Shown piece after piece: positions 4,943-42,800 of a stretch of DNA of 64,000 bases. The stretch's first letter is position 1; each line of letters starts with the position of its first letter. The DNA is taken from contig NW_015173124.1 in assembly GCF_001447785.1 (NCBI RefSeq), positions 269,845 through 333,844 of the forward strand, read 5' to 3'. Made by a program: the position numbers and the translations under genes. Under the pieces are notes generated by a model. That model saw only the letters and a list, made by a program, of their open reading frames with translations. It was not told where the DNA came from and did not search any database. The DNA comes from Gekko japonicus (taxonomy: Eukaryota).

Positions 4943-5299
4943 TGTTAGATCGCGCTAACAAAGGACTCGTACAGTGATTCAGCAAGTGATTCAGCTTTAT
5001 TGGAAGTAACGAACAAGCACTAACTCAGTAAGAAACCAGAACAGAAAACAGTGGGAGCTTATGCTCCTTTTAAACATAACCGGGCTAATGTAGCCACGCC
5101 TATTTACAAATAACAACCAATGAGATTGCTAGAATAAAGACCAATGGGAGTCTTTCCCTCCTAGGGAATGGTATCGTTCTGATTGGTCGCTGTTACGAAG
5201 CGACCAATAGGAAGTTCGCTCAGAGGAGCCCTGGTCTGGCTCGAAGCTTAACAGGGGAGTCCTATGAGGTGATTCATGTAATCATTTCAATACATTACA
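4943..5299 (-). repeat. 3' LTR of the Gypsy element
   Basis: Direct repeat of 9555-9911; one mismatch (5013 A vs 9625 G). Four CCAAT/ATTGG motifs, TTTAAAAG TATA-like motif and AATAAA on the minus strand. Confidence 0.96.
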
Positions 5300-5300
5300 A

Positions 5301-5312
5301 TTCCTCCCCCCT
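5301..5312 (-). other. Polypurine tract (PPT)
   Basis: AGGGGGGAGGAA on the minus strand immediately before the 3' LTR. Confidence 0.9.
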
Positions 5313-5372
5313 AAGTTAAGCCATCATCCCAATTGTTTTATTATTTACAAACATGCAATCAACCCTTGTACA

Positions 5373-9536: not shown

Positions 9537-9552
9537 CCCATCCTCGTCGCCA
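9535..9552 (-). other. Primer binding site complementary to the tRNA-Ser(GCU) 3' end
   Basis: TGGCGACGAGGATGGGAT starts 2 nt inside the 5' LTR boundary. It complements ...AUCCCAUCCUCGUCGCCA (recalled vertebrate tRNA-Ser GCU end). Confidence 0.85.
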
Positions 9553-9554
9553 AT

Positions 9555-9911
9555 TGTTAGATCGCGCTAACAAAGGACTCGTACAGTGATTCAGCAAGTG
9601 ATTCAGCTTTATTGGAAGTAACGAGCAAGCACTAACTCAGTAAGAAACCAGAACAGAAAACAGTGGGAGCTTATGCTCCTTTTAAACATAACCGGGCTAA
9701 TGTAGCCACGCCTATTTACAAATAACAACCAATGAGATTGCTAGAATAAAGACCAATGGGAGTCTTTCCCTCCTAGGGAATGGTATCGTTCTGATTGGTC
9801 GCTGTTACGAAGCGACCAATAGGAAGTTCGCTCAGAGGAGCCCTGGTCTGGCTCGAAGCTTAACAGGGGAGTCCTATGAGGTGATTCATGTAATCATTTC
9901 AATACATTACA
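9555..9911 (-). repeat. 5' LTR of the Gypsy element
   Basis: Direct repeat of 4943-5299, followed by the PBS. AATAAA (minus strand) at 9608-9613. Confidence 0.96.
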
Positions 9912-9933: not shown

Positions 9934-12900
9934 TCAACAATTTCTTTCTTTTTCCCGGCTCAGCTTCTCCACCTCTTTCATGAACCGGAGGCACAGCTCA
10001 TCCTGCCAGGGTAAAGCCACACACTGGACAGCCACAGGGAGTCCTATGGCTCCTTCTACTGCCTGTAAGGAGAGAAGGGGGGGAGAAGTTTTCGTATCGA
10101 GTGTCAACACAAGGTTGCCAGCAGGTGACATTGCCAAGAAGGCCAGGCTATGTACCTTCACAAAGGTCCTGTCCCACATATCATTGTAGTGGCCTCTGAG
10201 AGTTTTCAGATCGTCCTCATCCTTTTCTGTCACTGTTGTGACCGGTACCACTCCAGCAGGGCAGTCCAAGACATTATACAAGACGGTGTAACTTGCTCCC
10301 ACTGTGTAGATATAAAAAAAGAGAGAGAGAGACCCCACACATTGCAACCAGCAGCTCCAGCTAAGAGAAGGAACATTTGGAGAATGTTACGATTAATGCA
10401 GTGCATTTACAGCAGGCAGCTTTGCAATGTAAATCTCACAAATCATCATTACAAACCCTAGGAGACAAACGGTTATCCTGTTTTTAGAAAAAGAGATAAG
10501 GAGGAACCTGAGTGTAGATAAACAAAGAAATACAGTGCCACAGCAAATACTGTATGTTAAAAATGCTTACTAAGAACATAAGAGAAGCCAATGTTGGATC
10601 AGGCCAATGGCCCATTCAGTCCAACACTCTGTCACACAGAGGCCAAAAATACCAGGTGCCATCAAGAGGTCCAGCAGTGGGGCCAGGACACTAGAAGCCC
10701 TCCCACTGTTGCCCCCCCCCCAGCACCAAGAAAATACTATTACAATATGAAGACTGACTGGTTTTGATGCTAGTGTTTACCCCAGGCATGAGCTGCTCCT
10801 AGGAAAAACTAACAGTGTTAAAAATCATATTCCCTGTGGTTTATGCTGTACACATTTGTCCTATTCCATCCAAAGCCTAATGCATAAATACTAGCATGCA
10901 GTTAAAAATATAGCTGGATGTAATGGTTTCCCCTTTGTAAGTTTTAGAAGAACTAAGAACGTTGACAATGAAAGGAGAATTGGTCTTCAGTCATCATAAA
11001 TGTGGGGGATGTTCCCTGATTGAGAAGCCTGAATATATGTTTGAAAGAAGTGTCTCTGCTGTTGTTGATTCCTGTCTCTATACAATACAGGCAAGGCTCT
11101 TTTAAACTTCTAGTGACTTTTGTTACTCCCTTCAGGCTGGGTGTAAATAAAGAATGTCTAAATTGTGTATCAGCATTAAAGGGATAGGATTATTAAATTA
11201 CAAGAAAATGTTTCATACTGCAGCTATATTAAATAAGGCTCTGCAGAGTTCTTTCTTTAATTATATTTGAAAAATTTCAAAAACATCTAGCTGTAATGTC
11301 CTTTGTTACTGACTGTAGTGAATATATTGATCTTTACAAGAGTTTAGAACAACATTTTTGTATACTTAGTATCTAAATACTGAAGAAGAATCCCTTGAAC
11401 AGGATTACATCCCGATTCCTGTCTTGAACTTGAATTGCATTTGAATACGAATTGTCATTCCTCAGTCATTGTCTTCTTTGAACTATATTCTAGTTATTGT
11501 ATATTATTCTGCAAGTATTTCAATAATCATTCTTAACATATTCCCATTTTAGAGACAGAAAAATTGAACTTTACCTCAAACAGTCATGTGGGCTACTTCA
11601 TACATGGGACCATGTAAATCTCAATGCCAGTATCAGCAGCCTTCAACACAACACAGTGATGGGGTTGACTTTCCACAAGATCAGACTGAATTGAATGGGA
11701 GGCCATTTAACAAATGCTATGACTCCCCTGTGGCACACCTTTCACACTGAGAGGATTGCCAGTAATGCCACACACCACCTGCACCACAGAAGCAGCCACT
11801 GAGATAATTTATGAAAAATGAACAAGACAACAAGAGAAAGTCTGAACTACTGGTGTCCCAGGTTCACATCAAGCACATAGCTACCCAGCTATTCAGTCTC
11901 GTAGATCCCTTTGCTCTCCCAAGAAGAGTTAGAGAGTTATGAGAGCTTCAAAGCAAAAGCTGGGATGGGAGAACTTTTCTTCCAAACCAAACTGCACTTT
12001 TCCCACTGACAATACAGTCTCAAAAACTCATTGATGAACTACATCTTATTAGCATTGCTGGCTGCGATCCAGCAAGAAAAGAAAAGCAGGCTCCATCGCA
12101 CAGTCTGTGAGACAGGAGAGCTGAGTCAGCTACATTCATAACAAATCTCATGGGAAAATGCCCAAGAACTTCTGTTATCAGTTATCCAATGTTTAAACAT
12201 CTCTGAATCATTAGAGAATGGGCCCAGTTCTGGACCTTGGACTATCTCACAGAAAAACAAGAAATCAGCTTTTCTTGGGCTCATTTTCTGAGGGATCTGC
12301 ATTTTATGCTGATGATACCTTCAAACTCTGGAGGCCACAAGCCTGAGGAACTCACTCTCTAGGGACTCAGATGAACTCCTGCTCACTAACTTAGGTCAGT
12401 CAATAAATTTCTTCTGACTGTTCCATCCGTTTGTCAAATGCAATTGACTTCTATAGGGAATAATCATTTACTGTGATGATGGCCCCCATTCTGAAGAGGG
12501 GAAAATATAAAAGCCCATTGCAATGCATTTTGCGCCCCCCCCCCCACAATCGCTCACATCTTCCATGGCGACTTAGATTCCACAGTTGGTGCAGTTTAGT
12601 CTCCAGATGCCAGTGGAATGCAGTGTGGCCTTAGGTATATGGATGACTTTCAGTTGGTGGGGCCTGAAGTGGACAAGCTAGTCAAAAGAGTATGGTGCTC
12701 CACTTCTAGATGCATCCTTGCCCTCTGTGGCTGTTGGTATCAAGCAAGGCTGGACTGGTCATCTGGGTACAGGAGGTAATAAACACCCCTTTGTGGAAGG
12801 GCGTTGTTCTGACCACCTTGAAAGAGGCCACCGTGTGATCCCTCCTGACGAAGGCCACACTGCATTCCACTGACAACTGACCAGTGGCCAACATTCCATT

Positions 12901-15900
12901 TTGGGCAATGTGTTTGAGAGGGTGGTGGCCATGCAGCTTCAAGGAGGAGATGGATTATCAAAGACCCATTTCATTCTGGATTCAGGCCTGGAGGTAGGAT
13001 AGAAATGTCCTTGGTTGGCCTGACGGATGACCTTTGCTGGGAAATCGATGAGGAAATACATCCAAGTTTATTCTCTTGGACCTCTCTGCAGTGTTTGATA
13101 CCAGTGACCGTGGAGTCCTTCTGGAGAGGCTGGTTGAGTTGGGAGTGGGAGTTACCATGCTTTGGTGGTTCCATTCTTACTTGACCAATCAGTTCCAGAA
13201 AGTGGTTCTGAGGGACTACTGCTCAGCCCCATGGCACTTACATTAAGGGGTCTCAAAGTGTTCTATCTTGTCTCCCATGCTGTTTAACATCTATATGAAA
13301 CCTCTGGAAGAGATCATCGGGAATTCAGAATCAGGTGCCACCAGATATGGATGTCACCCAACTCTGTTTCTCCTTAACAGCCGAATCAGGTCGGTCTGCT
13401 TAGAGATGGTAATGGGATGGATGAGGGCCAATAAACTGAAGCTCAATCCAGATAAGACTGAGGTGCTGCTGGTCAGTGACAAAGCTGCTCGAGGACTGTG
13501 GAGCCAGCTGGTTCTGGAGGGGGCTGCCCTCCCTCTGAAGGATAAGGTTGGTAACTTGAGAGTACTGCTGGATCCAGGCCTACCATTGAAGGGCCAGATC
13601 TCCTCTGTGGAATGTAGTGCCTTTTATCAGCTTTGACTGATATACCAGCTATGGCCATTCCTCAAAAAGCATGAACTGGCCATGGTAATCCATAGTCTGA
13701 TTACACCCAGGTTAGATTACTGTAAAGTATTAAAGATTACTGCCTTTGAAAATAGTCTAGAAATGACAGCTCATCCAAAATGCAGCAGCTAGGTTACTGT
13801 CAGGGGCAGGATACAAAGATCGTATCACCCCAGTGATAAAAGATCTGCACTAGCTGCCCAGGCAAAATTCAAATTGCTAGTTCCTAAATGGCTTGGGGCC
13901 AGGGTACTTGAAGGACTGCCTCCTCCTCCCCCCGTACGGGTCAGCCTTTATGATCTGCCTCACAAGCCCTGTTCTTGGTGCCCTGCCTTCAAAAGTGAGG
14001 CAGGTGTGGCAACCAGAGACAGGACTTTTTTCCATAGTGGCACCTTGTTTGTGGAATGCCCTCCCCCTTGCTTTCTTTTAGGCACCAGAAAAAAGCCATC
14101 TTTGTTCACCCAGGTTTTTAATTAAGGGGTTGATTTTTAAAAAATATTATTTTAGTCTGAAAATTTATTTTAAGCTGTCTGTGGTCTGTTTTATGGTCTA
14201 TGATTTTTATACTAGGCTGGGTTTCTTCCATAAAGCTGGGTTTTAATTAATAATCTTAATGTTTATTTTATTAGTTTTATTTTTGTAAGCTCTCATGGGC
14301 AGATTTCTGGAGAGGTGGCATGAAAATTTTCTGAATGCTGTGGAGGTACTCTACCAGTTTGATTTTTCCATTAAGTACCTGAAAGTTTCCCTGGAAACCC
14401 AATCTTAAAAGCAGGACCCAGGGCAGGACAAAGCATCACATCTAGACGGAGTCTCTTCCATTTAGCAATGAATTCGTGGCAGTATTCCTAAAATAGGGAA
14501 AGCACAGGACAAGCATTCTTCAGCATGTCAGGCAGCAAACAAGAACATATCTGGGGCAAGCAGCATGGCTCTTCTCCAATGCCAACAAAGGAAATTAGAT
14601 TTTCTACAGCCATCAAATTGAACAAGTGCATAAAATAAAGATGACCTAAGTCAAAATCTAGAAGACGAAAGTCATTTGCAAGTATGAAGTTACAGAATTT
14701 AACAGAGAGTATGGGGGTCCCCGGTTCCCCTTTCGGAGTCATTTTCGGCTGGGTAGGGGAGAGATGGAGAAGCTGTCTCTGATGACAAAAATCCAGAGAT
14801 TTTGGTGCAATCCAAGTTAAACTAAATAGGAGAAGAAAGCTGGTATTAAAACAGTGTTGGGACTGGATGTCATTTGAGGCATACCTATTGGCAACAACTG
14901 TATGGATGTTTTCCTATGAAAGCTTTAAACCAGTCACTGGGAAGGTTTGTGTTACAACTTCAAATAAACAGATAATGGTGTTCTCAGCTGTGTTCCAAAA
15001 GTCATGGCCTGTGTGTCCCTGGCCTGATGAACAGACACACCGGTGGAGTCCAGAGGGCAGGATTTTCTAAATTAGTTATTGCAATAAACAGGAGATACAG
15101 TACATAGCACCTAAGCACCCGTAATTCTAAGCTGCTCTCTGCTGAAAACAGGAAAAGCAGAGCGTTTTATACCCAAAATGACACAGGTACGGTTTACAGC
15201 CCCAGGGAAATATCATTGGTTACAGGTACATCGGCGTAAGTTGAATTGGCAGAAATCCATTGGTGAACCCCAATTTGGGGTTCAGTTACATTCATTTACA
15301 TTGTTTATTTGACAAGGAACACAGAGGTCTTCATCTGGAGATTCTCAAGGACTCTACATATGTATGCAGAGGAAGCATCATCAATAAGAGGTGTGAATCA
15401 TGTCCTGATGTTTTGGGTGCCCCTCTGTAGGATGCAGGGCCTGCTTTCTTGTTATTCCAATGCAGGGGTGTTGGGCAATAAATCTCTTTCCAGAGATACA
15501 ATGCAAAGACATCTACAGATGGCCAAAATGCTTTCGGCCTTCCTTTGGAGCAGAGTTTATCCAGTGTTAAAACTGATGGGGTGACTATTGCATAGATGCA
15601 GAGAAAAACAAAAGAGGATTTCTTTAATCTATTTAACCTCTATGAACCTGACCTATATTGTGGCCTACTAAGGGAAATCACACCATCAGGCAATAGACAG
15701 AATCTATAAATTCATTACTAACATGGATAAATCAGACTACTACGACTTATGCTAAATTATGTTTTCCCTAAATAAAATCATAACTTGGTCCCTGTCCCAC
15801 AGTTGTGCCTGGAATATCTGTGGTCTGATGCTGGTAAAGGTTATACTAGCATTTCCAGCACATTTTACTGGGCATTACACAGCAAAGAAGACATTTTAAA

Positions 15901-18900
15901 AAAAAATTACCTCAATTTCAGTGTGAAATTTCCAAAGCTGATTGACAGACCTGAAATGTCAAGGGGGAAAAAAGGTGAATAGGATATTTCTGCAGAGATG
16001 CTGCTTTCAAGTTCATATTTACAGTTGGAATGAAGCTACTGAGGAACTTGGGAAATGCATGTTCCCAAGCTAGCATTTGCAGAGTTGTGGGAGCTGAACT
16101 AACGGAGCATCATCGAACAGGGAAGTGGGGTGCTTAACTCACCTGCTTGCAGATTCTGCCTACAATCACTCCTCCCCTTCCCCCCCCCAGCAGTTCCTCC
16201 CCCCAGCCTTTGGTTCCAATTCTGTAGGGGGGGGATGGGGAAAAACAACTCAAAAGGACCTAGGTGGGAACAGGTTTAACAATCCTCTGCCCCCACTGAT
16301 TCCCTCTTGCAAAAGCCACACCCACTGGACTGGGATCCTATGTTTCACTTGAACCTTCACTGAAAAGACTTACGAGGGTATTCAGGTGCCTGGTTGGACA
16401 CAAACTATGCTCCATCATTGCTTATTTAAAAGCACATCATTGAAGGCTGCTAAGCCTGCCCCACTGCCACCCCTCCTACCCTCTCCTCTCCCATACTCAT
16501 GCGTTTAAAACAAGTGATTTTCCCCACATGGTGGTTCTGCGGTGGTAAAACTGCACAAAAGCTTCTGCCACATGCCTACCTGAACCCTACAACTGACTCA
16601 GGCATTATTAGTAAGTGGCTTTGTCAGACAAAAATGAAATACCACCATAGAATATTTCAGGTTGTCATCTCTTATCCTGGGCATGCACATTTACGTCTCC
16701 TGCTACTCCCAGGTTACTTCTTCCACCCCCATCCTGGAAAAACAGCTTTGTGGCACGTTCTGAGACCAGCTCGCCACAGCATGGGAGGGGAGGGGAGGGG
16801 CAGTCAAAAAGGACCAGGCAGGGAACTGGCTGGAGGAGCGATGTCTGCCTTCTGTCCTCCCACATTAGACTGAAAGACACACATCCAATGCAAGACGCAG
16901 AATTCTAAGAATTATGGCCTCGGGTCTCCAGCACATCACTCCTTACTTCTCCTTCATGCTCCTCAGGACTTTTGACAGACGAGGACTCTAAGAAACAAAC
17001 GGAATTGATAAAAGTTTCCACACTCTGTTTTAAATTAAAAAACAAATATTGCAAAATTTTAAGTTTAAATAGGAATGTACCTTGCTAGGACAGGCACTGC
17101 AAGTCATGACTCTCCTGCCCTAAATCCCCAGTAATTTACCCTAGTTCAGTTATCCTGATACAGTTTACTGCAAATTATGACATACTATTCAGACCTAATT
17201 AATTAATCAACATAACAAGGAAGTGTAGAATCTTGCCTTGAAATTGGCAAGAGCCAAAGATTCTCAGGAATCCACTGGCACAGAATAGATCTAGCCTAAA
17301 CCATGAGTTAAAGGATTTGCCCCCATTCAAACCCTAGGAACATGACCATGGAGTAAATGCTAGAAGTCATCAGAAGTTAATCCACTAATTGCCTTAGAGA
17401 ATAAGAATGGAAGTAGGTAAGATAACAGTGAGAACTCTGATTGGAAAGCAATGTGCAGTGCTTTAACATACAGGAGGCTCTTCTGGCAGAATGCCATGGT
17501 TAATCTAGTTCTCATTGATAGCTATATAACAGAAGGAACATATTACAGCAAGCTTCTCTGGCCACATCAGGAAGTTTAATATCCCCCTGAAAAACTCAGG
17601 TAGCACAAAGAGATGATTTTGCTATAATCATGAAGCATTGGGTTAAGAATCATCTTATTTATTCCAATTTTTCCCATGTATCCAGGGTAAATGATGGATG
17701 GGTCCCACTGTAAAAAATATCTGAGAATAAAAATTCAGAGGAGGCCTTTACTCTTCCTGTGCTGCCAGTCAAGCAAGCAATCAGATACATTTTCAAGATG
17801 CTTGGCATTTTCTTTTATTTAAAGACACAAACAAAAAGGACCACAGGCTGCCTTGTTGGGGAAATGAGAATTGGATTTGCAGCTAAGTGTACATGACATT
17901 AGGGAGCAAAGGGTGGGGAAAGATGAAAACCCATCTGCAGGATAGCAGTACACATCCTAAGGCACATACCCCGCCTTGAGTGTAGTTCAGCTATTCCCAG
18001 TTCAAACAGCACAAACACACCATGTGGCATTTGAGATCCTTTAACTGAAAATGCCATAAAGTGAGCCTGGAACCTACTGTATGTCAAACATGTGCTCTAA
18101 CACTGAGGCATAATCGTACAGAAGCACTCTGTACCCCCTGTACCCTCAAAATGTTCAACTATTATTCAAGTTCTCAAAAAAGTATCCTATTCTACTATAC
18201 TGTCTGCCAGTTTGACATTGGCAGTATTCTGTCTTGAAGCACACTGTAGTTGGTTCCCATCAGTCATTGCCAGGAATAGTCCTCAAGTGCACTTAAAGGA
18301 AACACTTGGCACAATCACCAAGGGGATGCCTTGGCTGCTGACCAGCAGTCTCCCTTCCAGCTCCAAACAAGAGGGGACAAAGCAAAAAAAAACAGGTGCC
18401 TGGTTCAGTCTTGAGCGAAGACCTACCAATCCTGCAAGCAGGTTGCAATAGAGGGTAGCTGTCCTGCACTCCTGATGCCATGTTATTCTCTTGCCACCCC
18501 ACCCACCCTCCCCACTTTCACCATGAATAATTGCACAGCCTTCCCTTGCAGTTTCTTAGGCCACCCAAACAATCATTCCAAGAAGACCTTTGTAATTTCA
18601 CCTAGTATTCAACTCATTTAAATAAAATAAAAGCCTTATTCTTTGCTCTCCAACTCAAAGAGATTTCATATAGAAAATTGACTTTCTCTTGGATTTAGCA
18701 GCCATTTTTTACACCAAGTGGGTAGAATCCCTTCGAGATGGGAGAGGAAGTGAGTTATTGACAAGTATCACTGACATCTCCTATAATCCTTAAGGGAACT
18801 GCACACTAGAATTGTTTCCAGTTTAACAGCTCTTCTGTCTCAAAAAGAATTAGCAGAACTTTGCAGTCATCACAACCACTAGTTGCTGTTATTCCAGAAA

Positions 18901-21900
18901 GAACACCAAGAGGCAAGCCTTACTATTGCTCTGCTGATCCAGGATAAGAGTCTTCTTAACCAACCAGGTAACTTTGCCAAAAGCAACAATTCCTTTAAGT
19001 TGGGATCCACAGGCTCCCCTTGGCTGAAAGGTGAGAAGACAAGACCAGTAAGTTTCACAGTGCCTTTTATGTTCTTAACCCTTCAGCCTTTCTCCCCTTG
19101 AAGTTGCCATCAAACATCAGCCTGCTGTCCCTGAGAAAGGAGGGTAGGAAGGCAATTCCATAAGGGCATTGTGTTGCATCCTATGGGCCTTTTTGCCAGA
19201 GGAACAACAGAAGCTTACACAGCACTCATAAGAAGGAAATGTCAAACGTTTCATACAATTCTGTTTCATGTGCAGCAGCACACAGCGACATTCTGTCCTG
19301 CTGCTTAAGCTAATTCACAGGCTTAAGGTTTCCAGTTTGATGGTCTTTCAGCGCTGGGAGACTATTCTGCTCTCTTCTGCACACGCACGCACACACACAC
19401 ACACAGATTTTAAAGACTTTCAAGCTTTCTAGAAAGGTGGCACCACCATCCGCAAACAACCCTGCTGGAACAATAGTAGTCATAAAATGTTCTATTTTCA
19501 AGGGCTTGAAGGGCACCAGCTAAAAAAAATAATTAAAAAATAGTATCAGAATTAGTCTCACTCTTATTCCCTCTGAGCACACAGTCTAATTGGCCACAAA
19601 TAGCTCCAGAGGATTCCAGGAAGCAAAGGCACAGGCTAAGGAAAATCACTAAACCTCCTGAAGTGATGCAGGACTCTCTTTTTTAGATAGGCAATTCTGA
19701 AGAACATCTGTTCTTTGCTACAGTGATTGTCTTGCCCTCCTGATAGCAACAGAGAAGCCACTGAAAGATGGAGGAGGAGACACACCACATGGCCAGCCTT
19801 CTCCAGAAGATGCTTGGTTTCCAGAACAGCCCGCTTCATGGAAGGGCTTGGCATGGTAAAGGAATCAGTGGTATAGTATCCTATTCGGAGGGTCTGAGAG
19901 CTGGAATACACCTGGAACAATAAAAGAAGGGGAAAGAACAATTTAGAAATACTTTTTTCCTCCCAGAGCATTAATCACATTGGGCTCTTGAAAGGCCAAA
20001 ACACAGAAAGCATAATCCTAAAACCACTCTGCTGGGCACAACTGAATGGAGCATAGTAGAATTTTAAGTAGACCTGCTCAGGATTGCTCTCTAAATCAAA
20101 GTTTATTTACACTTCCAATTATTCCTCCTTCGGACAAGTGATTAAAAAAGTGGCTTTTCAATGTGCTTTGAGCAGCTCATACCCCCTCCTTACAGCAGCT
20201 GTTGCTGTGTAAGACCACCTGTAACTATAGCAAATTAATCCTTAAGCATCCATCTGCCAACTTGGATTACTGATGGAAAAATAGGCTGATACAATGTAAA
20301 AGAGATTCTCAGTTACATTGTCTTGTCTTCTAGACTCAGCTGATGCAGCTACACAGATCCATGCATTTGTAACCTCAAAACTTGACGTGTAACAGGAACA
20401 AGAAAAGTATGGACCTTTCTTTTAAAAGGACCATACATTTCCACCCCTGTACTGCATGAAAGCATCCCCTTTGCTAGATGACATCACAGTGAGGCTGATT
20501 ACCTGATCTTTAGAAATAACATTGAAAGTGACTGCCATGAAGAGAGTGAAGCCAGTGTGGGCTGCTAAGAATCACTGTAGAGAACCACTGCATCCAAACT
20601 ACATTCTAAGAAGGCACAAGCATACTGCACATCTGTTCCCCCTCCTGAGTTACCTGGATACAGAGTACTGTTTCAAAATACATCCTCTCAAGACCAAAAC
20701 CCATAGATGCACCCCGTCCTGCAACTCCAGCTGTTACCTTAAATATCCTGCTGCTTTATGGTGCTTACAATTCATCACTGGGTGAATGCTATTGCATTCT
20801 CAGTCCAACAAGCCTTGTTGTGGTAGTGCAAGGAGGAGAGAATGCACCCTACTAGCTTAAAAATATAGAAGGCATTTATTGCAGAATATTTCTCACAGAG
20901 CCATTGGGTGCAACTTGCTTTTGGCTCTGTGAACCCAACTACGGTAAGGGGAGACAAAGATTTCACGAACTGCTCCTAACTTCCACATGTCCCACTGACA
21001 GGAAACAGGTCTTGTTTACTCCCCTAAGCCATGCCCCCCCCCCAATCTCTCACCTCCTCACTGAAGGGAAGAGGAGCCACTGTGGGATCCAGCTGGAACA
21101 TTTTGTCACACAGGAGGGCTCTTAGGCACAGAACGAGACCATCAACATCCCTGGCCATTGGTCCTACTCCCACACTAACTGGAATCAAAAAGGGGAAGAA
21201 TGGAGGCATTGAAAATATGGTCGGCCACACCCCACATATATCTTGGGAAACAATGTGAGGAGGACATCTTTATCACAATCCCAGAAAGCGAATTATTAGC
21301 CTGTGATAGCAGTACTTCTGTGTGTGTGTGTGTGTGTATATAATTTTTAGATTTTTAAAATGTTTTATAAGTTGTCTCAAATAAATTTTATATAGTTGAA
21401 AGGTGGGATATAAATTCCATATGTACTATATTTACCCAAAAATAAGATGGCCCTGAATGCAAAACAATTCTCCCTAAAAAGATTATACACAAAAGGGTTT
21501 TTATTACCATAAATGACTGTATGCAAATTTAAGATGGTCCCCTCTCTTTCTTGACAGTACACGTGGAAAAAACCCATCTTTTTTATGTAAGCAGGCTAAT
21601 AAATAAAGTACATTATTAAACTTGCCCCCCATTATTAATACTCCTGCTATCTAAGTCACTTTGTACTCTCTTCCCTGCCTGAATTTCTTATTTTTAAATA
21701 ATTCAATTTAAAACTTTTGTATAAGACAGGTTATCCCCATCTATGCCATTATGTGCTCTTTGGAGGAAGATGGAAGACAGATTAGACCAATAAACTTGAA
21801 TGGATCCTGTCATTAGGATCCATCCAGGTAGGTAATTACAGAGATCAAAAATGCCACCCCGCCCATTCACTGTAAACTGACCCCTACTCCATCCAGGAAA

Positions 21901-24647
21901 ATGATATAACTCACCTGATTTTTGTCCACAAATGCTGGGTACAATCCCTCTTTTGCTGTAAAAAGACCACAAAGAATCTTAGCAAAGATCTCTGGGTTCC
22001 CAGTTCTCAACATCAGTGCTTGGGAAAGACCTCAAACTGGGACTCTACCCTCAGGTGCTGCACCATTAAGACCAGGAGCAAAAGCTAGCAGTATAAACAA
22101 ATATAGAAAGCTCAAACCTAGTTTTTTGTCCATATAACAATGCAACTTAGTGATTTTTGCTTCTTGGGTTACTAGAGCTACTTCTTGCACCATTCGTGAA
22201 GGTTTCTGCCCACATACTTACCCAAGGCATATTCCATGAAGGCCCTATGCCATTCCCAGAGACAGGTTTTAACAGGTGTTGAGTCCAAGTATCTTAGCCT
22301 ATGCAAGGTTTTTTAAGGATCTAACATGGCACACTACCTGATTCTGTTGCCTGTGGTTTTGAACCCACAAATTCCACAGAAAGCAGCTGGAATGCGGATG
22401 CTCCCTGCTACATCTGTGCCAATGCCAAGGATAGAGCCTCCATTTTTAATAAGGGCACCTTCCCCTCCTGAGGAACCACCAGGGGTTTTTGTGTGATCCA
22501 CAGGATGCACCGTCTGCCCAAAGATCAGATTGCTGCAGTCATAGCTGAAATGAGAGTATGAACGGAAGTTATTATTATTATAATTATTATTTACATTTTT
22601 ATCCCACCCTCCCCGCCATGGCAGGCTCAGGGCGGCTTACAATACAATACATACAAATAGATATATACATTAAAACTCCAACATATACTAAAAACAGAAT
22701 TAAGTTAAAATCACAGTGTATAAGACCAACCTACTCAAAACATAGATATAATAAAAGATGGCAGCATTCCCTGACATTTGAATTGTCGCCTACCCCTAAT
22801 TCAGGCTGTTGGTCATCAAGTTGGTGATGAAGTTGGTGGTAGGGCCAGGGTCATGATGTTAAAGGCGGCCCCCTAGTTGAAAGCCTGGTGGAAGAGCTCT
22901 GTTTTACAGGCCCTGCCTAAGGGGCCACCACCAACAATCAGTCAGGGCTATTTCATATGCTTTAACCCTCTAGACAGGAGTCTTACCTACCCAACCCTAC
23001 CCACGCTATGCTACCAACTAGTTGATCATGTCTTGTCTTCACGCCCCATGCTCCAATTCACTCTTTACCATCAGAAGTGGTAGGGAAAAGGGAGAAAAAG
23101 CATGCTGTTATTTCTAGAAAGCCACACAACATTTCCCAAAAAACCCCTTGGTCAACAGTTCTCAGACAGCCCTGGAACCAGTGTTCCCTCTAAGCTGAGT
23201 TAGTGTGAGCTAGCTCACAGTTTTTTAGCCTCCAGCTCACACATTTTTGTCTTGGCTCAGGAAGGATGGCTCCAGAGCAAACTAATTTATGCAGTAGCCA
23301 AATTGCTTGCTCACAACTTTAATGCCAGTAGCTCACAAAGTAGAATTTTTGCTCACAAGACTCCACAGCTTAGAGGGAGTATTGCCTGGAATATGTGCAA
23401 AGTGCCACTTGCCTCATCACTGAGTAATCAGACATCTCTCTCTCAAATTAAGGGAAATGGCTGCCAGGCCACCTTCTGTTTTCATGACCCCTGGGGCTCC
23501 TCTTACTTATAAATTAGATAGCTCTTAAGGAGCATAACACAAACCCTTCCATCCCCTATGAGAAAGAAACTGCTAACCATTCAAAAATATTTGTCCTTAG
23601 GCAAAAGTGGATAAATTACTGCACTGTTATTCAGATGATAGTTTCAGATTGGAGCTGGTTTCAGATTAGAGGAAGTTTTATGTTTAAGAATAAAAGAGCT
23701 AAACTAAACACATCTCATGATGTCTGAAGACAGCTAATGAAGACAAATGCCTAAGCATATAGACTATAGCAAAGAAGTTACAGGCTTACTTCATCAAAGA
23801 CTGACAAACGTTGGTTTTGACAAATGGAATTGCTCCCTGCTGTTTTAACACCTGGACTACAACAGCATCTACTGTTGCAGGTTTTTGGAGACGCTTCACC
23901 AAACCCAGTGTGGAATCATGGCCCTGGAGAGGGGCATAAAGAGAAATCCAGCTTTCCTACAGACATTTAGACCGATATCCCACAAGCGCTGCTCCACACT
24001 CGCTCTTCCCTTCCCCCCCCCCATGGTACCTGTCAATTTCACACAAGCTCCTGCTTAGCTGCATTTTGCCCCACAGCTTCATGTGATTTTCCCCACTTCT
24101 ACTCAAAATGTGGCAGCGCAGCCGCTTGTGTGAAATTGACAAGTACCATGGGGCAAAAGGGAAGAGCGAGCGTGGAGCTTGTGGGAAATCGGCCTTAGTA
24201 TCAGGCAACAATACTGGTACACCTGCTTCATTATGCATTCTTAGGAGATGTGTGATGTGTACCAGTATTATTGCCTGATACTAAGGCCGATTTCAGCAAT
24301 AACACTGCAGAGTAGGGAGACTTGGGTCCACCTAGAAAGCTGAGATGAACATCAGTTGGAACAGGCATAGCTACACTCTGAGTAGCTAAGCTCAGTGCAT
24401 TCATACAACTGTTGACTTTTTACAGAAGTACAGTAATTGGTCTTGTGAATACTTTGATATGTTGATATGTTGTAAGGTCAGATCAAATATGATGTGCAGA
24501 TCAGTGATCTTACAACAAGGTGCAACAGTCAATAGTAAATCGCAATCAATACACTCTTCTGGGTACAACCCACCCTTAAAAGAGTTCCTTGGGCTCGGGA
24601 TATGAAAAGGCAAAGTCTTGGTCATATAACTTGCTTTTTAAAATGTC

Positions 24648-24678
<31 letters not shown>

Positions 24679-27600
24679 TGTATCCCACCCTCCCCACTTT
24701 CGGAGGGCTCAGGGCAGCTAACAACAACTCCAATATATATACTAAAACCAGCATTCCATTAAAATTACAATATGAACTATAAATACACTGCACATAGCTA
24801 TAATACAGATGGCGGCATATAGTCATCATTTGAATGGCCGCTTCCAGGCTCCTGCCAGGCTGTTTATCATCCAGCTGCTGGTGGTATTGATGTTAAGGCC
24901 AGGTTGGTGGTAGTGTTGATATTAGGGCCAGGGCCATGATGTCAAGGCGGCCCCCTACTTGAAAGCCTGGCGGAAGAACTCCGTTTTACAGGCCCTGCGA
25001 AACTGCAGAAGGTCCTGCAGGGCCTAACCTGCTGGGGTGGGGGGAGGGATAAGATCAAGGAGAGGGAGTAGATCAAACTCCCCAGGACAGGATTCAAAAC
25101 TTCTATCCACTATTTGTTTCTGATCCATCTACTTTTACCCTGCCATTCCTCTAAGGAACTCATGTTTTTTCTGTCCCCATTTTATCCTCACAGACACCTG
25201 TGAGGCAGTCGAAACAGAGAGAGTATCTGAAGCAAAGTCACCCAGCAAGCTTCATAGAAGAATGGAGATCTAAACGAGATTTAGTCAGACAGTCTAACCA
25301 CTACATCACCCAGCAGTCAGTGACATCATAGGGTCAATTCACATGCTATGAAGTCTTCGCATCCCTTATGCAGCTGCCTGACAGGTGCCATCCATGCTTC
25401 AAACTTAATTCCCACGTGTGTGCAGGTCTGATTCATATTGACACCACTGTGTGTGGGGAAAGGGGTTTAAGCCCTCCCTCCCACCATTTTGCAACCTGAA
25501 ACATTCCAGGGGAATTACGGTTTTCCATATTGGGGAAATATATTCCTAACCATCAGCTCACAAAAGTTTCCCCAGGAAGGCAAATAGTGGCTCCCCTGGG
25601 CAATTTCCTGTGGAGGAAATCTTAAGCCCTGTTTCCCGTGTTCCTAATTAGAATTGGGCCCATGCACACCTGGGAACTAAGTTCCAAGTACAACTTGGAC
25701 TGACAAAACCTGTGAAAGAGGCAAGGACTTGGTAATGTGTTCATGGCTTAATTTATAATGTTTCCCTTACCTTCTTCAAATTTATCTACTACAGTCAAGG
25801 CAAGGTTACTTTAGGAGTGAGGGGAAAAGACTGAAACTGGACAAAAGAACACTTCCCATCTATTTACCTGTCACATTTTTACCTTACCCTTCCTCCACAG
25901 AGGTATAGGTAGTGTGCATAGATTTCTCCTCTTCTATTTTCACAGCCATCCTATGAGATAGGTTAGGCTAAAAGTGTGTGACTGGAACAAGATCACTCAG
26001 TGAACTACATGGCTAAGAGGAGATTTGAACCTGAGCCTCCCCAGCTACACTGCACTATTCAAACAAGATATTTTTACAAAATTAATGCACAAAAATTGTA
26101 AAATGGACAGGCTTCTTTCACTATTGACTTGTGATCTAAGGATAATATCTGACCAGAGCACTTACAATGTCTCAGGAAAGCTTTATTCCCAAATACTGGT
26201 TCGCTACACGAACACCAAGCACTTCGTTCCATGAGGAACTCTGACTTACCTTGCAGTCAATAGAGTCCTTTATGCTGATGGGAACCCCAAAGAGCAAACC
26301 CTTCTTCCCCTGGCTCTTCATATGCAGAAGCTGGGATTCACTGTCATCCAGATAATCAGTCACACAGTTGAGCTCTCTAGTTACATCCAGGGCCTATAAA
26401 ACCCGGAAAAGGCGAAATTAAGTTCAGAGACATAATTCCCACCACCATGACACATACACAGAGAGTGAGGTTTGTCGTTGCTAAAGCAAACACTTTGCAC
26501 CCCCAAATAACCTTTGGACTACTCCAAATCATAAATCCCAAGATTCTGAAGACTGGCCTAGAGGGGTGCCCACTCCAAAGTTTGTAAGGTGTGCTTTGCT
26601 ATCAACTGAAGAATGAGGCATCTGCTTGAAGGAAACGGTCTTCAGAGTTTGGGGTGTGTGATTTGGGCATATCCAGACCCTTATTTTGGAATGCAGACCT
26701 GTTTAAATATCATTTATATTTGTAGTTGGATTGGAGAACAAGGAACCATGAACTGCACCCATGGAACTGGGAACCATTTATTTATTTATCGTATTCCATT
26801 TATATTCCACCCTCCCTGCAAGGGGGCTCAGGGTGAATCACAGTAGGATTCTAAAACACACACCATCTGCAGCTTATCATTATAACTCAGACCGATTTCC
26901 CACAAGCTGCTGCTCCGTGCTCGCTCTTCCCTTTGCCCCATCGTACGTGTCAATTTAACACCATGTGCTGCGTGGCCGCATTTTGCCCCACAGCTTCACC
27001 CCATTTCCCCCGCGTCTACTCAATCCTGTTTTTTGAGGATCGAGTAAACGTGGGAGAAATCGGGCAAAGCTGCAGGGCAAAATGTGGCACATGGTGTGAG
27101 CACGGAGCAGCAGCTTGTGGGAAATCGGTCTCAGATTTACTGACAAAGAAACCATTTCTCACCTTGTCCATGTAGGTGTAGAAGACACTCTCGGGTGAGA
27201 GAGAGCCATCCCTGAGCTTCCCAAGCAGTTGAGGCAGGGTGAAAGATAGTATTGATGACGGTTGGTGGCCTGGATTCTGAACAAGAAATTCAATTGATAA
27301 TGGTTTACATAATGCTGCTCCCACAACCTACGCCCACAAAAGTAAATGCACATGTTTCAACAGTGCAAGAAGAAAACACCGCAGAACCTGATCTCCTCAT
27401 GCAAATTGATGTGATTCAATGGAGAGAGCACTTGCTCCAGGTCTGAATCACACTTGCGTTGTAGAACATGTAATTTAAATGAGGTAAATCTGACACTCAG
27501 ATACTGCATTCATTTTTTATTATTCATATGGACACAACAGCAACAAGAGAAGGGCTGAAAAATACTTTAAGTGGCACATGTGAGTTTGGCCTTTGACCTG

Positions 27601-30600
27601 GAAGACCCTCAGATCCTTGCTTGGTAATGAGTTTATCAGGTGGTCCTTTGCAACTGTCACCCTCAGTTCTTCACCTGTAAAATGGCAATAGGAGAAATTT
27701 GCTTTGCAAGGATTACTAGGTGGTCAAAATGAGATGAGAGTCACTCAATACTTCACATACCGATAATTATCTATCTGGATAACAGATTCTCCAAGGTACC
27801 TGTTTCACCCTGCAATAGAACTCTTCTACTTTTTGTATATTACTGACCTTCTGAAAAGTGTCCTTATCCAGTGCCTCAAACAACTGTAACTGCAAACAAA
27901 CCACATTCAGCACTGTGATATGCATTAGCCCTGAGATCTTTTGTGCAGACATCAAGGCTTGCATTCATATCAGCTCCAGTACTCTATCCAAAAGTGAAGA
28001 ATGGTTTATCCAAGCCAATCCACAATATTGGCCCTAAAATTTTATTATTTCTTGCTTTTGTAAAAATATTTACATCATGCCATTCCTCATGGTTCAGTCA
28101 AGCGCATCAACATTCTTTAAGGTTTAGGGGCACAGGTTGTTAAATGACATGGGAGGGGAACTACATTTCCCATAAGGCTATGCAAAAATATGCATGTGCC
28201 AAACAAGCTTAATAACACAGACCAACACAAAATGTTAAATCTTTTAGAAAGTGTTTATTTACCATTGTTGGCTGAATGACTTTGCCAGTACTTATACAAT
28301 TAGTTGCTGAGAGGCATGTAGTGACACCCATTGGTGGGGAGGAGGGGAAGCAGAATTCTCAAGCTGCACGCATGTAATTACATGGTTCTGTCCTGCTCGA
28401 ATACACAAGAAGTAATCTGACAAACAGACACACTGATTGATGACAAATCAGCACCCTGGTTCTTCATGCTGAACAAAATGTGAGCCAAAGTGGGAGCTTG
28501 AGCTTCCTCGGCTAAGATACCTAATAAAGCGCTGCTCTTACCAAACTGACGGGTAAGGTCAAACTTTAATAGAGGCATGGCTGCAGCTGCAACCCTTATA
28601 ATTTCCAGAGTTAAATTTCCTGCACTCAGGTCCCTGCCACACGGCAGGGAAAAGGACGCTCAAACTGCGGCTAGTGTGAGCCACAGCAAAGTTGAGACGG
28701 CGCGGCGGGATCTCACGGATCCCCCGAGCTGCGGCGCCGTCACTCCCTGGCACGATCAGATGCCGGGGAGAAAGTGACGGTGGGGAGGGGAGCCTGGCAA
28801 ACTGCGCATGCTCACACATGCGCAGTTCGGCCAGGAGCCGGGGATGCGCCGGCGCAAGGACGCACCGGCGATCCCATGGTCAGCGTTGCTGCGGCCCTTC
28901 GGAAAAAACACCTCGGTAGGTGGTTCTTTTTTGGTGCGGAGCAGCGCTGGAAGGGCTGGATCAGGGACGGAGACGGTACGCTTCCCAGATGTTGCAGTGG
29001 GATCGCGCCCGTTTGCTCCACCCCCGTTCCATCCTGCTCCCGGCCCAAAAGGCCTCGTATGGACAGGACCTCAGTTGGGCAACTTTGATATTGGTGAAAC
29101 AGACACTCCTTAATGCAAAAGTGTTAATTACCCAGCCAGTTAAGCAGCTGCCAACTGTGTGCAAAGAGAACAGAGACTAAATAGAAGTGCCAAACTGATT
29201 TTTTTTTAATGTGGAAAACTACCAGGAAGCAAATTTTCTTGCACTATAGTATCTATCTCAGTCTGCTCTCAATTAATCTACACCCCCCAATAAGGGTGGG
29301 TCTTTCTTACCACTCTAAGAACAAGTTGACCCCCACAAAAAATAGTGAGTAAATCTTTTCCCATTGTACCTCCATGAAATGCCTAGCTTCACTTGCAAAG
29401 TTAATGTACAGTGGTAGGTGCGGGGGGTGGGGGAGTGGCAGCCTTTCATAGATTCCCTGCCCCAAACAGGGCTCCTGCAACTTGCAAAGGAAGCAGAAAT
29501 CCAACAGAAACAACTTCCTCTATGCAGCTGTTTAGAGGGCAGAAAGACATGCCAGAGGCACACTACTTCTGCCATTATTACTTTGGAACCTTAACTACAT
29601 GTTCCAGAGAAGTAGCAAACTGTATTAAATCCAGCAAAAACAAAAAGGAGTCTTGTGGCACCTCACAGATGCAGAGATTTTATTGCAGCATAAGCTTTTT
29701 GCAAAGACCCACTCGAGTCCCCGCAAAACTTTATGCCACAATAAATCTGTTAATCTTTAAGGCGCCACAGGACTTTTGTTTAATTGTGCCCCAACAAACT
29801 AATGCTCCAGAGAGAAAGGAGGGCTTGGTGTTTCCTTGTGTGCAGAATATGTAGTCTTTGCACTGTAGCAAGTGTTGAATATATGCTCCATCATTTAGCA
29901 TACCATTTACCATGCAAGAGTAATCTTTACACACTGGAAAGGGAGAAACTACTGCAGAGATGGATCTAACATTCTAACCTGTTCAAAGTGTCTATATAGA
30001 TAGGATTTCACATCAGTTGTATGAAAGTCCAACATAGCGATCACGCAGTTGTTTTAACTTGCTGATATGGTGTAAGCAAAAACAATTTGCTGGAAAGCCA
30101 GATTGTGTATAAGGAATACTCCAGTACTAACCTACTGATTACAGAATAACTTTCTCTCTTTACTGTCACTAAACCCAGGAGATTGGGACAGGGTAAAAGC
30201 GGGAACAGCCCAGAATGGGATGGAACAGGCATTAAACAAACAATAGTACTGCAAAAAACACTGAGATGTATTACAGACACTCGAGAAGTGAAAACATGGA
30301 ACTCTTGCACCTTTCCAGGACAAAATGCCCCTGGAATACCCCAGAACAAGCCGGAATGGGCATTAAACAAATAATAGTACCTCAAAAGACAGTGGGATGC
30401 ATTACAGACACTCGAGAATAATATTTTAGAAATAAACATGCAGAACTCTTGCACCTTTATTAACCGTTTCCAGGCCAAAATGCCTCCAGAACACCTGAGA
30501 ACAGGCCGAAACGGGCATTAAACAAACAGTAATGCCAAAAAAATGGGATGCATTACAGACACTCGAGAATAATATTTTAGAAATGAAAACACAGAACTCT

Positions 30601-31599
30601 TACATCCTTATTAAACCGGCCAAAATGCTTCCAGAACACCCCGGAACAAGCATTAAACAAACAATAGTACCGCCAAAAAATTGGGATGCATTACAGACAC
30701 TCAAGAACAATATTTTAGAAGTGAAAACATGGAACTCTCACATCTTTATTAACCCTTTCCAGGCCGAAATACCTTGGCGTTTTCACTTCTAAAATATTGT
30801 TCTCGAGTGTCTGTAATGCATCCCAGTGTTTTTTTGCGGTACTATTGTTTGTTTAATGCCCATTCCGCCTGTTCTGTGCTGTTCCAGCTTTTACCCTGTC
30901 CAAGGGATTTCAGTAGTAATGAGAATGCTTCTTTAAAATTCCCTAACAGCTTTTTAACAGGGGGTTTTAATATAATCCTACATAGTCTCTACAGGGTTGC
31001 CCAAAGAAGGCTGATGTACCTTTGATGCTACAACCTGAAACTGAAGAAAATCCAGCTGAATTTAGTTGGTCATGTGCATAAGCCAATGTGCATATACTGC
31101 ATGGAAGGGAGACTTTCATAAGTTGCTGCCTTTCCCATCAGTGCACGAGGAGGAAGGAGGAAGGCACTCCGGTCGAAATCCTCCTTTCAAAACTTACAAG
31201 AGCCCTCACCAGATTTGGATCCGTCTACTTTCATCACAGAATCTAGATGCATTCGTCCGAGGGCTAAAGGGCTCAGGGGACTCTGATCCACTGAGTATGG
31301 AAAAGAGCAAATGCGTTCGGCTTCCTGCCTTAAGGATGGTCTGGACTCTGGAATTCCTTGTGCGATGATCCTTGACATCTTTAGGCACACACCGGAGACG
31401 AGTACAGCCGTTTCCACCTCCCGCACCTTACCTGCTCCTTGAACTTGCGAGCAGCCTTTTCCATTTTCTCAATTGTGTGCTCCCGCCTCCACTTCGCTTC
31501 TTTCATCTTCCTTTGGACTGTCCTCCTCCTGCGCCAATTCAGCAGCAGGAACGTAGCAGCCCCGCAGCACAAGACAGCGGAGACCAGGCTGACACTCAT
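9934..31599 (-). CDS. FAAH: FAAH/vitamin D3 hydroxylase-associated protein-like amidase, paralogue A; 15 exons, 573 aa
   Basis: Exons: 31599-31432, 27276-27163, 26393-26250, 23923-23790, 22544-22338, 21955-21915, 21178-21054, 19911-19786, 19519-19422, 19023-18924, 16987-16947, 15950-15911, 14487-14379, 10301-10156, 10062-9934 (TGA). Total 1722 nt, no internal stops. Motifs GVPISIKD (catalytic Lys), GGSSGGEGAL, GTDVAGSIRIP (nucleophile Ser), GPMARDV, GLPVAVQCVA. All introns are GT-AG except intron 9 (GA-AG). Orthology to FAAH versus a VDHAP-like paralogue is unresolved. Confidence 0.93.
10574..10730 (-). mobile_element. CR1 LINE 3'-end fragment
   Basis: AAGAACATAAGA tail plus a 3'UTR nearly identical to 54345-54505. 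Confidence 0.75.
12560..14330 (+). mobile_element. Degenerate, 5'-truncated L2/CR1-clade LINE in FAAH-like intron 13
   Basis: Frameshifted RT remnants (LDLSAVFD, LSPMLFNIYMKPL, WMRANKLKLNPDKTEVL, RLDYC, QNAAARLL) followed by an AT-rich 3'UTR. Confidence 0.82.
15010..15300 (-). mobile_element. Possible degenerate solo LTR in FAAH-like intron 12
   Basis: On the minus strand: three CCAAT boxes, then TATAAAA (about 15165-15171), then an AATAA-like signal. TG/CA-compatible ends, but no TSD found. Confidence 0.3.
22568..22920 (-). mobile_element. L2-type LINE 3'-end fragment with (TAA)n tail
   Basis: ATT-repeat tail plus ATCCCACCCTCCCC..GGCTCAGGGCGGCTTACA. Homologous to 24648-25025. Confidence 0.6.
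23179..23384 (+). mobile_element. hAT-type MITE, copy 2
   Basis: TIRs CAGTGTTCCCTCTAAGCTG / CAGCTTAGAGGGAGTATTG. 8-bp TSD CCTGGAAC / CCTGGAAT. Confidence 0.85.
23970..24194. mobile_element. PIF/Harbinger-like palindromic MITE, copy 1
   Basis: TIRs GACCGATATCCCACAAGC / GCTTGTGGGAAATCGGCC. 3-bp TSD TTA (23967-23969, 24195-24197). Confidence 0.8.
24648..25025 (-). mobile_element. L2-type LINE 3'-end fragment with (TAA)n microsatellite tail
   Basis: About ten TAT repeats at 24648-24678, then sequence homologous to 22600-22920. Confidence 0.6.
26890..27130. mobile_element. PIF/Harbinger-like palindromic MITE, copy 2
   Basis: Perfect TIRs GACCGATTTCCCACAAGCTGCTGCTCCGTGCTC. 3-bp TSD TCA (26887-26889, 27131-27133). 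Confidence 0.82.
28640..29060. promoter_or_regulatory. Intronic CpG island with paired NRF1-type motifs
   Basis: CpG-dense, GC-rich stretch. ACTGCGCATGCTCACACATGCGCAGT at 28801-28826; TGACG half-sites near 28737 and 28775. Confidence 0.55.
30165..30918. mobile_element. Foldback-like element with inverted ends and internal 130-150 bp tandem units
   Basis: Ends TTGGGACAGGGTAAAAGC (30183) / GCTTTTACCCTGTCCCAA (30903). Four direct units (GCATTAAACAAACAATAGTAC...ATTACAGACACTCGAG) plus one inverted unit at 30776-30860. Confidence 0.7.
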
Positions 31600-34400: not shown

Positions 34401-35261
34401 ACTGTATTGGTTTGAGGACAGATGTCAGCATGGACCATGTACATACAGCCTGCCAAGTGCACCCTATACCTATATTAGATATCTTGCAAAAAAATGGATC
34501 AAGCTTTCATGTACACCAGAATTTTCATTTGAGGTAAACAAGACACTGGAATGGCAAAACTGCTGGAAATCCCAAGTCTGCAAATTTTAACAAGAGGGAG
34601 AACATCTTTTTCCAACAGTTCTGCCAGCACCTCAGTTATTGTTTTATACCCTGCACAGACTAACACAACTGTCTGTATCACACCATCTCTGCTTCAACTT
34701 AATACTGTTAGGAATCAGTTGATTTTACAGCATGCCGAACAACATGTTTTTCTTCTCCTAACTCCCCCCCCCCACTTTTTGGTTTAATATCTGATCTAAA
34801 GGACAGCTTAATCCAAGAATATGAGGGAAAACACAAAAACAGTTCATATTTTTGTTTCCATGTTTTATTCAGCAGTTCTTGGTTACCACACTCTACTTGG
34901 GAAATATGAGAGGTAACTGACCAAAACCTTTGCCATGCAGGTGATCCACATGACAGAAGCAATGTTTAAATACCTCTAATGGGTATAGTGCAGCATTCAC
35001 AGGTATGTGATTTAGATGGATGCTCCAGGCACAGGCACATAAATGTTGTTCCCCACTCACATGGACTGCCTATGAAGGGAAAAGGTTTTTAGCAACAATT
35101 ACGGGCTGTGAGTTACATGTAAAGCCCAAGGTGCAGTCATTCAAGAAGAACATTTGTGCTGTCTTGTAAATTCAATTGCCGCCACCCCATAATATCACCA
35201 AGATGTCAGATGCAAAGCTGGGTACCCATTCTCCCTCTTTCTACAGCATACTCTGTCTCTT

Positions 35262-42640
<7,379 letters not shown>

Positions 42641-42800
42641 CGCCTACTCCAACGCCGGCCCCGGTGCACACTCCTCCCTTCCTCCTGCGCCGAGACACGC
42701 CGGCGAATCGTTCATAGGAAGGAGGATCCGTCCCTTGTTCGACCTGGAACTGGCGTCGCCCGGAAGTTTCGTTGACATTTCCCCGCCCATTTGTATTAAA
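42641..42800 (-). promoter_or_regulatory. NSUN4 CpG-island promoter
   Basis: CpG-rich. ETS/GABP motif CCGGAAGT near 42760 and GC box CCCGCCC near 42782. Confidence 0.6.

What the first reader, a model, noticed from the sequence alone, without database searches (positions are those of the whole stretch)
19380..19440. FAAH-like intron 9 starts with GA (GAAAGT) instead of GT
Seen: exon 10 (19023-18924) needs a phase-2 donor. The 98-nt exon ending at 19422 (...GAA AGC TT|) gives ...ESF|QGEPVDP, matching the FAAH boundary (QNF|KGD, recalled). The intron there begins GAAAGT, one base from GTAAGT, while the other 13 introns are GT-AG and the frame is otherwise intact. The nearest GT (19417) is out of phase. 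A (TG)n repeat about 17 nt downstream offers an in-frame GT|GTGTGT donor at 19400 (+7 aa) and could bind UG-repeat splicing factors. Inference: a rare functional GA-AG intron, rescue by a microsatellite-derived donor, an incipient null allele (exon 9 skipping frameshifts; skipping exons 9+10 removes 66 aa in frame), or a base-call error.
Basis: partly seen in the sequence, partly recalled or inferred. Interest (0 to 1): 0.7.

Follow-up and report, generated by a model that had tools for sequence, protein, structure and literature searches.

The report
Gecko FAAH "GA" donor reads GT
One intron of a gecko fatty-acid-amide-hydrolase-like gene starts with GA instead of the usual GT in this genome sequence, but all three independent sequencing runs known to cover that letter read GT and RNA is spliced exactly there, so the GA is likely a one-letter assembly error (or a private mutation of the sequenced animal), not a rare working GA intron.

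Summary
Observation confirmed: intron 9 (19421-19024, minus strand) of an otherwise intact 15-exon, 573-aa FAAH-like gene begins GAAAGT; the other 13 of 14 introns are GT-AG. It is not the species' donor. Of 6 runs laid (24 listed), 3 are known to cover base 19420 and all read A on + (GTAAGT): an RNA-type contig otherwise identical to the window, a DNA contig, and 5 of 5 raw RNA reads; three studies. Two runs hold the exact 19422-19023 junction. Three tandem paralogues have TT|GTAAGT here. The GA site lacks the context of known GA donors and pairs worst with U1 of the 14 donors. Best reading: single-base miscall beside a (TG)n repeat (~0.6). Rival: private splice-null allele of the assembled animal (~0.35); four other window-only letters lie within 3.3 kb. 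Working GA-AG intron: ~0.03. The assembled animal's own reads were not identified, so error versus private allele stays open. The scan has no note on this place; it noted a different odd intron (GT-GG) elsewhere in this genome.

The parts
9934..31599 (-). FAAH-like gene (gene A), 15 coding exons, 573 aa; first of four tandem FAAH-like genes
   Evidence: open frame; Amidase PF01425, E 1e-106 on the identical protein P0016; best PDB hits FAAH1; paralogues
19422..19519 (-). exon 9, 98 nt, ends in phase 2
   Evidence: contig pieces end at 19422 in X1 and X17
19024..19421 (-). intron 9, 398 nt; GA-AG in the window, GT-AG in X1, X2, X21
19420..19420 (-). donor +2 base: A on the transcript strand in the window (T on +); T on the transcript strand (A on +) in 3 of 3 covering runs
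   Evidence: table 3: X1 depth 76.7 of 76.7, X2 79.7 of 79.7, X21 5 of 5 reads, 5 starts
19376..19416 (-). stretch masked as repeat by the read tool; holds the (TG)n/(TGCG)n microsatellite with weak cryptic GTs (in frame at 19400, 19394, 19388, 19382); no use seen
18924..19023 (-). exon 10, 100 nt; acceptor joined directly to 19422 in RNA
   Evidence: table 8: X1 record 4, X17 record 8

Best explanation
Intron 9 of this gecko FAAH-like gene is an ordinary GT-AG intron: all three independent runs known to cover the donor read GTAAGT and RNA joins exon 9 to exon 10 exactly, so the GA in the window is likely a single-letter miscall of the assembly. Shown: the GT base in X1, X2 and X21; the exact junction in X1 and X17; GT at the same place in the three paralogues; an intact frame. 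Inferred: that the window's letter is an error rather than a real allele. The likely route is a wrong consensus call about 15 letters from a dinucleotide microsatellite, where the A of ...CTTAC... on + became a third T. Errors beside simple repeats and runs are common in short-read drafts (my own knowledge, not tested here).
For:: 19420 reads A on + in X1 (458-nt contig 18994-19451, 1 other letter, 0 gaps, so the same microsatellite length and the same letters as the window except this base), in X2 (DNA-type contig from a more distant haplotype) and in X21 (5 of 5 raw reads, 5 starts; X21 matches the window at all 9 other listed places where X2 differs). Junction 19023|19422 in X1 (60-nt contig, depth 46.4) and X17 (2358-nt contig, record 992-1091 then 1092-1190); paralogues B, C, D all TT|GTAAGT; 13 of the 15 homologues found cross the junction with no insertion or gap (P0008 is a fragment that reads into intron 8; the model P0010 lacks exons 10-11); of the 5 window-only letters, 19420 is the only one that extends the run just before it on +. 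A DNA contig shows GT, so RNA editing is not needed. The draft has 191,500 contigs. Precedent: assembly base errors mimic gene loss and are checked against raw reads (PMC9355568, passages).
Against: None of the runs laid is known to be the assembled animal, so none tests its genotype. Four other places in 16800-20100 (17047, 17552, 18475, 18480) differ from the window in every run with reads there, about 1.5 per kb with 19420; that is more than I would expect from consensus errors alone, so many window-only letters are probably true alleles. Contigs drop rare variants, so X1 and X2 could hide a second allele. X23's base at 19420 was not shown (row hidden, no T>A counted); the depth figures fit spliced reads, but a GA read there is not excluded. 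No second copy of the stretch with GT was found in the own genome (1 match, the window itself).
Confidence: 0.6

Rival explanations
1. The GA is a real, private +2T>A mutation of the assembled animal and likely acts as a null or near-null allele. Intron 9 would be retained (stop after about 37 further codons), or weak cryptic GTs would be used (+4 frameshift; +21 in frame in the repeat), or exon 9 would be skipped (frameshift). Three tandem paralogues might buffer the loss.
For: Window-only letters are common nearby: 4 others in 3.3 kb. Four FAAH-like genes lie in tandem. CTT|GAAAGT pairs with U1 at -1.6 kcal/mol, against -4.5 to -12.2 for the other 13 donors and -5.4 for the GT form, so it would probably not be spliced.
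Against: The haplotype in X1 equals the window at every listed place of 18890-19550 except this base. The frame, length (573 aa as in 5 of the 15 homologues) and triad motifs are intact, so there is no other sign of decay. GA was seen in 0 of 3 covering runs. Paralogue exons are mostly only about 40-70% identical in protein, so buffering is uncertain.
Confidence: 0.35
2. The GA allele is real, segregates at low frequency and is spliced as a working GA-AG intron (or rescued in frame by the microsatellite donor at 19400).
For: GA-AG introns exist in vertebrates (FGFR, ITPR1; PMC4176328 passages). Positions +1 and +3 to +6 match the consensus. The public model P0016 crosses this junction exactly, but that is also what GT-bearing RNA would give.
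Against: No run showed GA. The exon end is TT, not AG, and there is no GT 6 nt upstream as the FGFR mechanism needs (PMC4176328 and PMC7072748 passages). GA ranks fourth of six among non-canonical donors and depends on enhancers (PMC6280755 abstract). Even GC substitutions work mainly in sites with strong U1 pairing (10.1101/479493 passages). The repeat GTs are weak (4-5 of 11 matches, -2.1 to -3.6 kcal/mol); no contig using them was listed (1 piece not shown, rows at the repeat are dropped).
Confidence: 0.04

Closest known systems
Assembly base errors that mimic gene-inactivating or splice-site mutations (PMC9355568, passages read; false non-canonical junctions over SNPs, PMC4176328, passages)
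   Same: A single letter in a draft breaks a splice site of an otherwise intact gene and is not shared by independent sequence data.
   Different: The usual check uses the raw reads of the same individual; here only other animals could be laid, so a private allele is not excluded.
Vertebrate GA-AG introns of FGFR genes and ITPR1 (PMC4176328 and PMC7072748, passages; the original FGFR paper was not read)
   Same: GA at +1/+2 with consensus-like +3 to +6 and an AG acceptor, in the window's letters.
   Different: Those are confirmed in DNA and RNA and (FGFR) conserved and dependent on a GT 6 nt upstream. Here GA is absent from 3 of 3 covering runs and from 3 of 3 paralogues, and no GT lies 6 nt upstream.
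GA donors of Eurytemora affinis and Oikopleura dioica (PMC7072748 passages; PMC5714493 search listing)
   Same: GA followed by A.
   Different: Those have a conserved exonic AG before the GA and are genome-wide; this site has TT and is a single case.
FAAH1 / FAAH-like amidases of lizards (P0016 labelled Gekko japonicus FAAH1-like, identical; Gekko kuhli 93.4%; Heteronotia 89.5%; rat/humanised FAAH1 structures)
   Same: Amidase domain, triad motifs, 573 aa, same residues across the exon 9/10 junction.
   Different: Nothing unusual in the protein; activity not tested.

Membership tests
Functional GA-AG (U2-type non-canonical) intron | GA at the donor confirmed in independent DNA or unspliced RNA | tested here: not met
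   3 of 3 covering runs read GT; the assembled animal's reads were not identified
Functional GA-AG (U2-type non-canonical) intron | Exact splicing from a GA-bearing template | tested here: inconclusive
   Exact junction in X1 and X17, but X1's intron contig is GT and X17's genotype is not covered; no GA-bearing sample found
Functional GA-AG intron, FGFR type | Canonical GT 6 nt upstream of the GA | tested here: not met
   No GT between 19443 and 19417; requirement from PMC4176328 and PMC7072748 passages
Functional GA-AG intron, Eurytemora/Oikopleura type | Exonic AG before GA and A after it | tested here: not met
   Context is CTT|GAAAGT: A after, but no AG before (PMC7072748 passage)
Functional GA-AG intron | Conservation in paralogues or related species | tested here: not met
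   3 of 3 paralogues GTAAGT; the more distant haplotype X2 GT.
Assembly base error | Letter absent from the raw reads of the assembled individual | not testable with these tools
   Runs are coded and none is known to be that animal; both read lays are used
Amidase-signature / FAAH-like enzyme | Amidase domain PF01425 over the cut-off | tested here: met
   358 bits, E 1e-106, residues 90-556 (on P0016, identical to the window's joined exons)
Amidase-signature / FAAH-like enzyme | Lys-cisSer-Ser triad motifs | tested here: met
   ISIKD (K136), GGSSGG (S211), GTDVAGSIR (S235); the match to rat K142/S217/S241 is recalled
Amidase-signature / FAAH-like enzyme | Hydrolysis of fatty acid amides | not testable with these tools
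   No assay possible

The most novel reading that the evidence does not exclude
The assembled gecko carries a real GT-to-GA donor allele of its FAAH-like gene that segregates in the species and is still spliced, exactly or through the adjacent (TG)n donor: a non-canonical intron caught at birth, in a context unlike the known GA donors.
Probability: 0.04. Interest if true: 0.6.

Novelty: not a real feature. Interest (0 to 1): 0.07.

Why it matters
As it stands it matters little: a canonical intron with one wrong or private letter in a draft genome. It is a caution that GA-AG introns counted from genome annotations can be artefacts, because RNA from GT animals mapped on a GA reference looks like read support for a GA-AG intron. 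The public model P0016 crosses this very junction. A real private allele would be an ordinary splice-null variant in a four-gene array. Only a real and spliced GA allele would be of wider interest.

Tried and rejected
(1) First lay, wide region: no exon 9-10 joint row and the 19420 row was among 10 not shown; inconclusive alone. Depth arithmetic for X22 (42.2 letters per strand in a bin holding 42 exon letters; 7.8 per strand where 4 exon letters lie) fits reads that stop at 19422 and 19023; this is an inference, and X22's genotype is unknown. (2) The joints table was empty; the tool says it dropped 1 joint and 3 loose-end rows at the repeat; the junction was read from table 8. (3) RNA editing of GA to GU: rejected, a DNA-type contig has GT (X2) and A-to-U is not a known editing type (recalled). 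(4) A different exon 9 end: rejected; homologues read ESF|QGE or F|KG at this place and RNA ends at 19422. (5) A second haplotype contig with GT in the own genome: not found (the search can miss). (6) No listed holder was on record as RNA; not used as evidence. No paper on this site was seen in the five searches that ran, none of which named the species. No supplements were opened.

Full report
1. Observation. The minus strand holds a 15-exon gene from 31599 to 9934. Joined by coordinates, the exons give 573 codons and one stop. Exon 9 (19519-19422, 98 nt) ends ...GAAAGCTT in phase 2; exon 10 starts at 19023; the join reads FLESF|QGEPVDP. Intron 9 starts GAAAGT; the other 13 of 14 introns are GT-AG. 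No N lies near the site. The nearest downstream GT (19417) shifts the frame; in-frame GTs lie in the (TG)n tract at 19400, 19394, 19388 and 19382.

2. The gene. Exon 5 matches FAAH1 structures best (E 2e-27). A search with exon 8 returned 15 proteins, mostly lizard FAAH1-like: Gekko kuhli 93.4%, Heteronotia 89.5%, Paroedura 85.9%. 13 of the 15 cross the exon 9/10 boundary without insertion or gap; the two others are a fragment that reads into intron 8 (P0008) and a model that lacks exons 10-11 (P0010). The cluster of the G. kuhli protein holds a RefSeq protein labelled Gekko japonicus (P0016, XP_015277443.1, on a contig as long as G000:C13414). It equals the window's joined protein letter for letter, so the public model uses this junction. 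Pfam gives Amidase at E 1e-106; the triad motifs are present. Three paralogues follow in tandem on the same contig. All three have a 98-nt exon 9 followed by TT|GTAAGT, so GT is the ancestral state and GA is a +2T>A change in this copy.

3. Reads. 24 runs were listed; 6 were laid. The wide lay (X21, X22, X23 raw RNA, X2 DNA-type contigs) was thin at the junction and hid the 19420 row. The narrow lay (X1, X17, X2, X21, four studies) settled the main question. Base 19420 reads A on + (donor GTAAGT) in X1 (depth 76.7 of 76.7, 32 letters from the contig end), X2 (79.7 of 79.7, 4 letters from the end of the laid piece, which starts 38 letters into its contig) and X21 (5 of 5 raw reads, 5 starts). 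X17 does not cover the base. X1's 458-nt contig spans the whole intron with this one difference and no gap. X21 matches the window at all 9 other listed places where X2 differs. So GT is found both on window-like haplotypes and on a more distant one. The exact junction stands in X1 (60-nt contig: 18994-19023 then 19422-19451, depth 46.4) and X17 (2358-nt contig: 18924-19023 at record 992-1091, 19422-19520 at 1092-1190). Depth arithmetic suggests about 5 spliced and 5 unspliced reads at the donor in X21, and reads that stop at both exon ends in X22 (inference). X22 and X23 gave no genotype. For X23 no T>A was counted and the row was hidden, so a GA read is not strictly excluded.

4. Could GA work if real? 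The site scores poorly. CTT|GAAAGT pairs with the U1 5' end at -1.6 kcal/mol; the 13 other donors give -4.5 to -12.2 and the GT form -5.4 (a simple duplex estimate, not a splice predictor). Known GA donors lean on a GT 6 nt upstream (FGFR; PMC4176328 and PMC7072748, passages) or on an exonic AG (Eurytemora, Oikopleura; PMC7072748); both are missing here. GA ranks fourth of six non-canonical donors and needs enhancers (PMC6280755, abstract). Even GT-to-GC changes give normal transcripts in only about 15-18% of cases, mainly where U1 pairing is strong (10.1101/479493, passages). The repeat donors are weak (-2.1 to -3.6) and no use of them was listed, though the tool drops rows at the repeat and the samples carry GT. 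A real GA allele would therefore most likely be a null or near-null: retention meets a stop about 37 codons into the intron.

5. Error or private allele. For error: the base lies about 15 letters from a dinucleotide repeat; the window's T extends a TT run on +, the only one of 5 window-only letters to do so; X1 is otherwise identical; the gene shows no other decay; the draft has 191,500 contigs; base errors are known to mimic gene loss (PMC9355568, passages). For a private allele: four other letters within 3.3 kb differ from the window in every run with reads there (17047: X21 15 of 15, X23 1 of 1, X2; 17552: X21 3 of 3, X2; 18475 and 18480: X21 3 of 3, X23 2 of 2, X2). That density looks more like polymorphism than like consensus error (my judgement), and the gene has three paralogues. 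The own genome holds no second copy of the stretch. I put error at about 0.6, a private damaging allele at about 0.35 and a working GA allele at about 0.04. These are judgements, not computed values.

6. Comparison and novelty. It resembles vertebrate GA-AG introns only in the window's letters. It fails the tests that could be run: confirmation in independent reads, conservation in paralogues, the upstream GT, the exonic AG. It fits the known class of reference-specific splice-site changes. As a GA-AG intron it is not a real feature of the species. Earlier notes of the scan hold nothing at this place. They list a GT-GG intron (e1-9528388) and suspected assembly artefacts (e1-9536753, e1-9517799) elsewhere in this genome; I did not check them.

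7. Limits. The label NSUN4 for the upstream gene and the rat residue numbers are recalled. No supplements were read.

Verdict: observation confirmed; working GA-AG intron not supported; interest 0.07.

Noticed in passing
window 4943-9911, minus strand: A young Ty3/gypsy-type LTR retrotransposon begins 22 nt behind the FAAH-like stop codon, in the same orientation: LTRs of 357 nt at 99.72% identity, 5-nt target duplication, one 1397-aa frame with RT, RNase H and integrase domains. The first AATAAA after the stop lies in its 5' LTR (9613), so it may end the gene's mRNA; whether other animals carry it was not tested.
   Followed up: partly
window 19024-19421: Intron 9 may be slow to splice even with GT: in X1 intron/(intron+junction) depth is 0.62, against 0.34 for intron 8 and about 0.22 for intron 10; X21 shows about 5 unspliced and 5 spliced reads at the donor. 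Contig depth is a poor measure.
   Followed up: partly
G000:C13414 about 146,000-301,443 (L011-L023 and window): Four FAAH-like genes in tandem on the minus strand, behind an NSUN4-like gene (window about 35,260-42,700; label recalled). Paralogue exons are mostly about 40-70% identical to gene A.
   Followed up: partly
window 17047, 17552, 18475, 18480: Four more letters where every run with reads differs from the window: private alleles or further miscalls.
   Followed up: partly
gene A residue 233 (exon 5): GTDVAGS where most homologues have GTD[IVM]GGS next to the nucleophile serine; the Phrynocephalus protein and paralogue B also have VAGS.
   Followed up: no
P0010 (public Phrynosoma model): The predicted protein lacks the residues of exons 10-11; probably a modelling artefact at the same intron, DNA not seen.
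   Followed up: no
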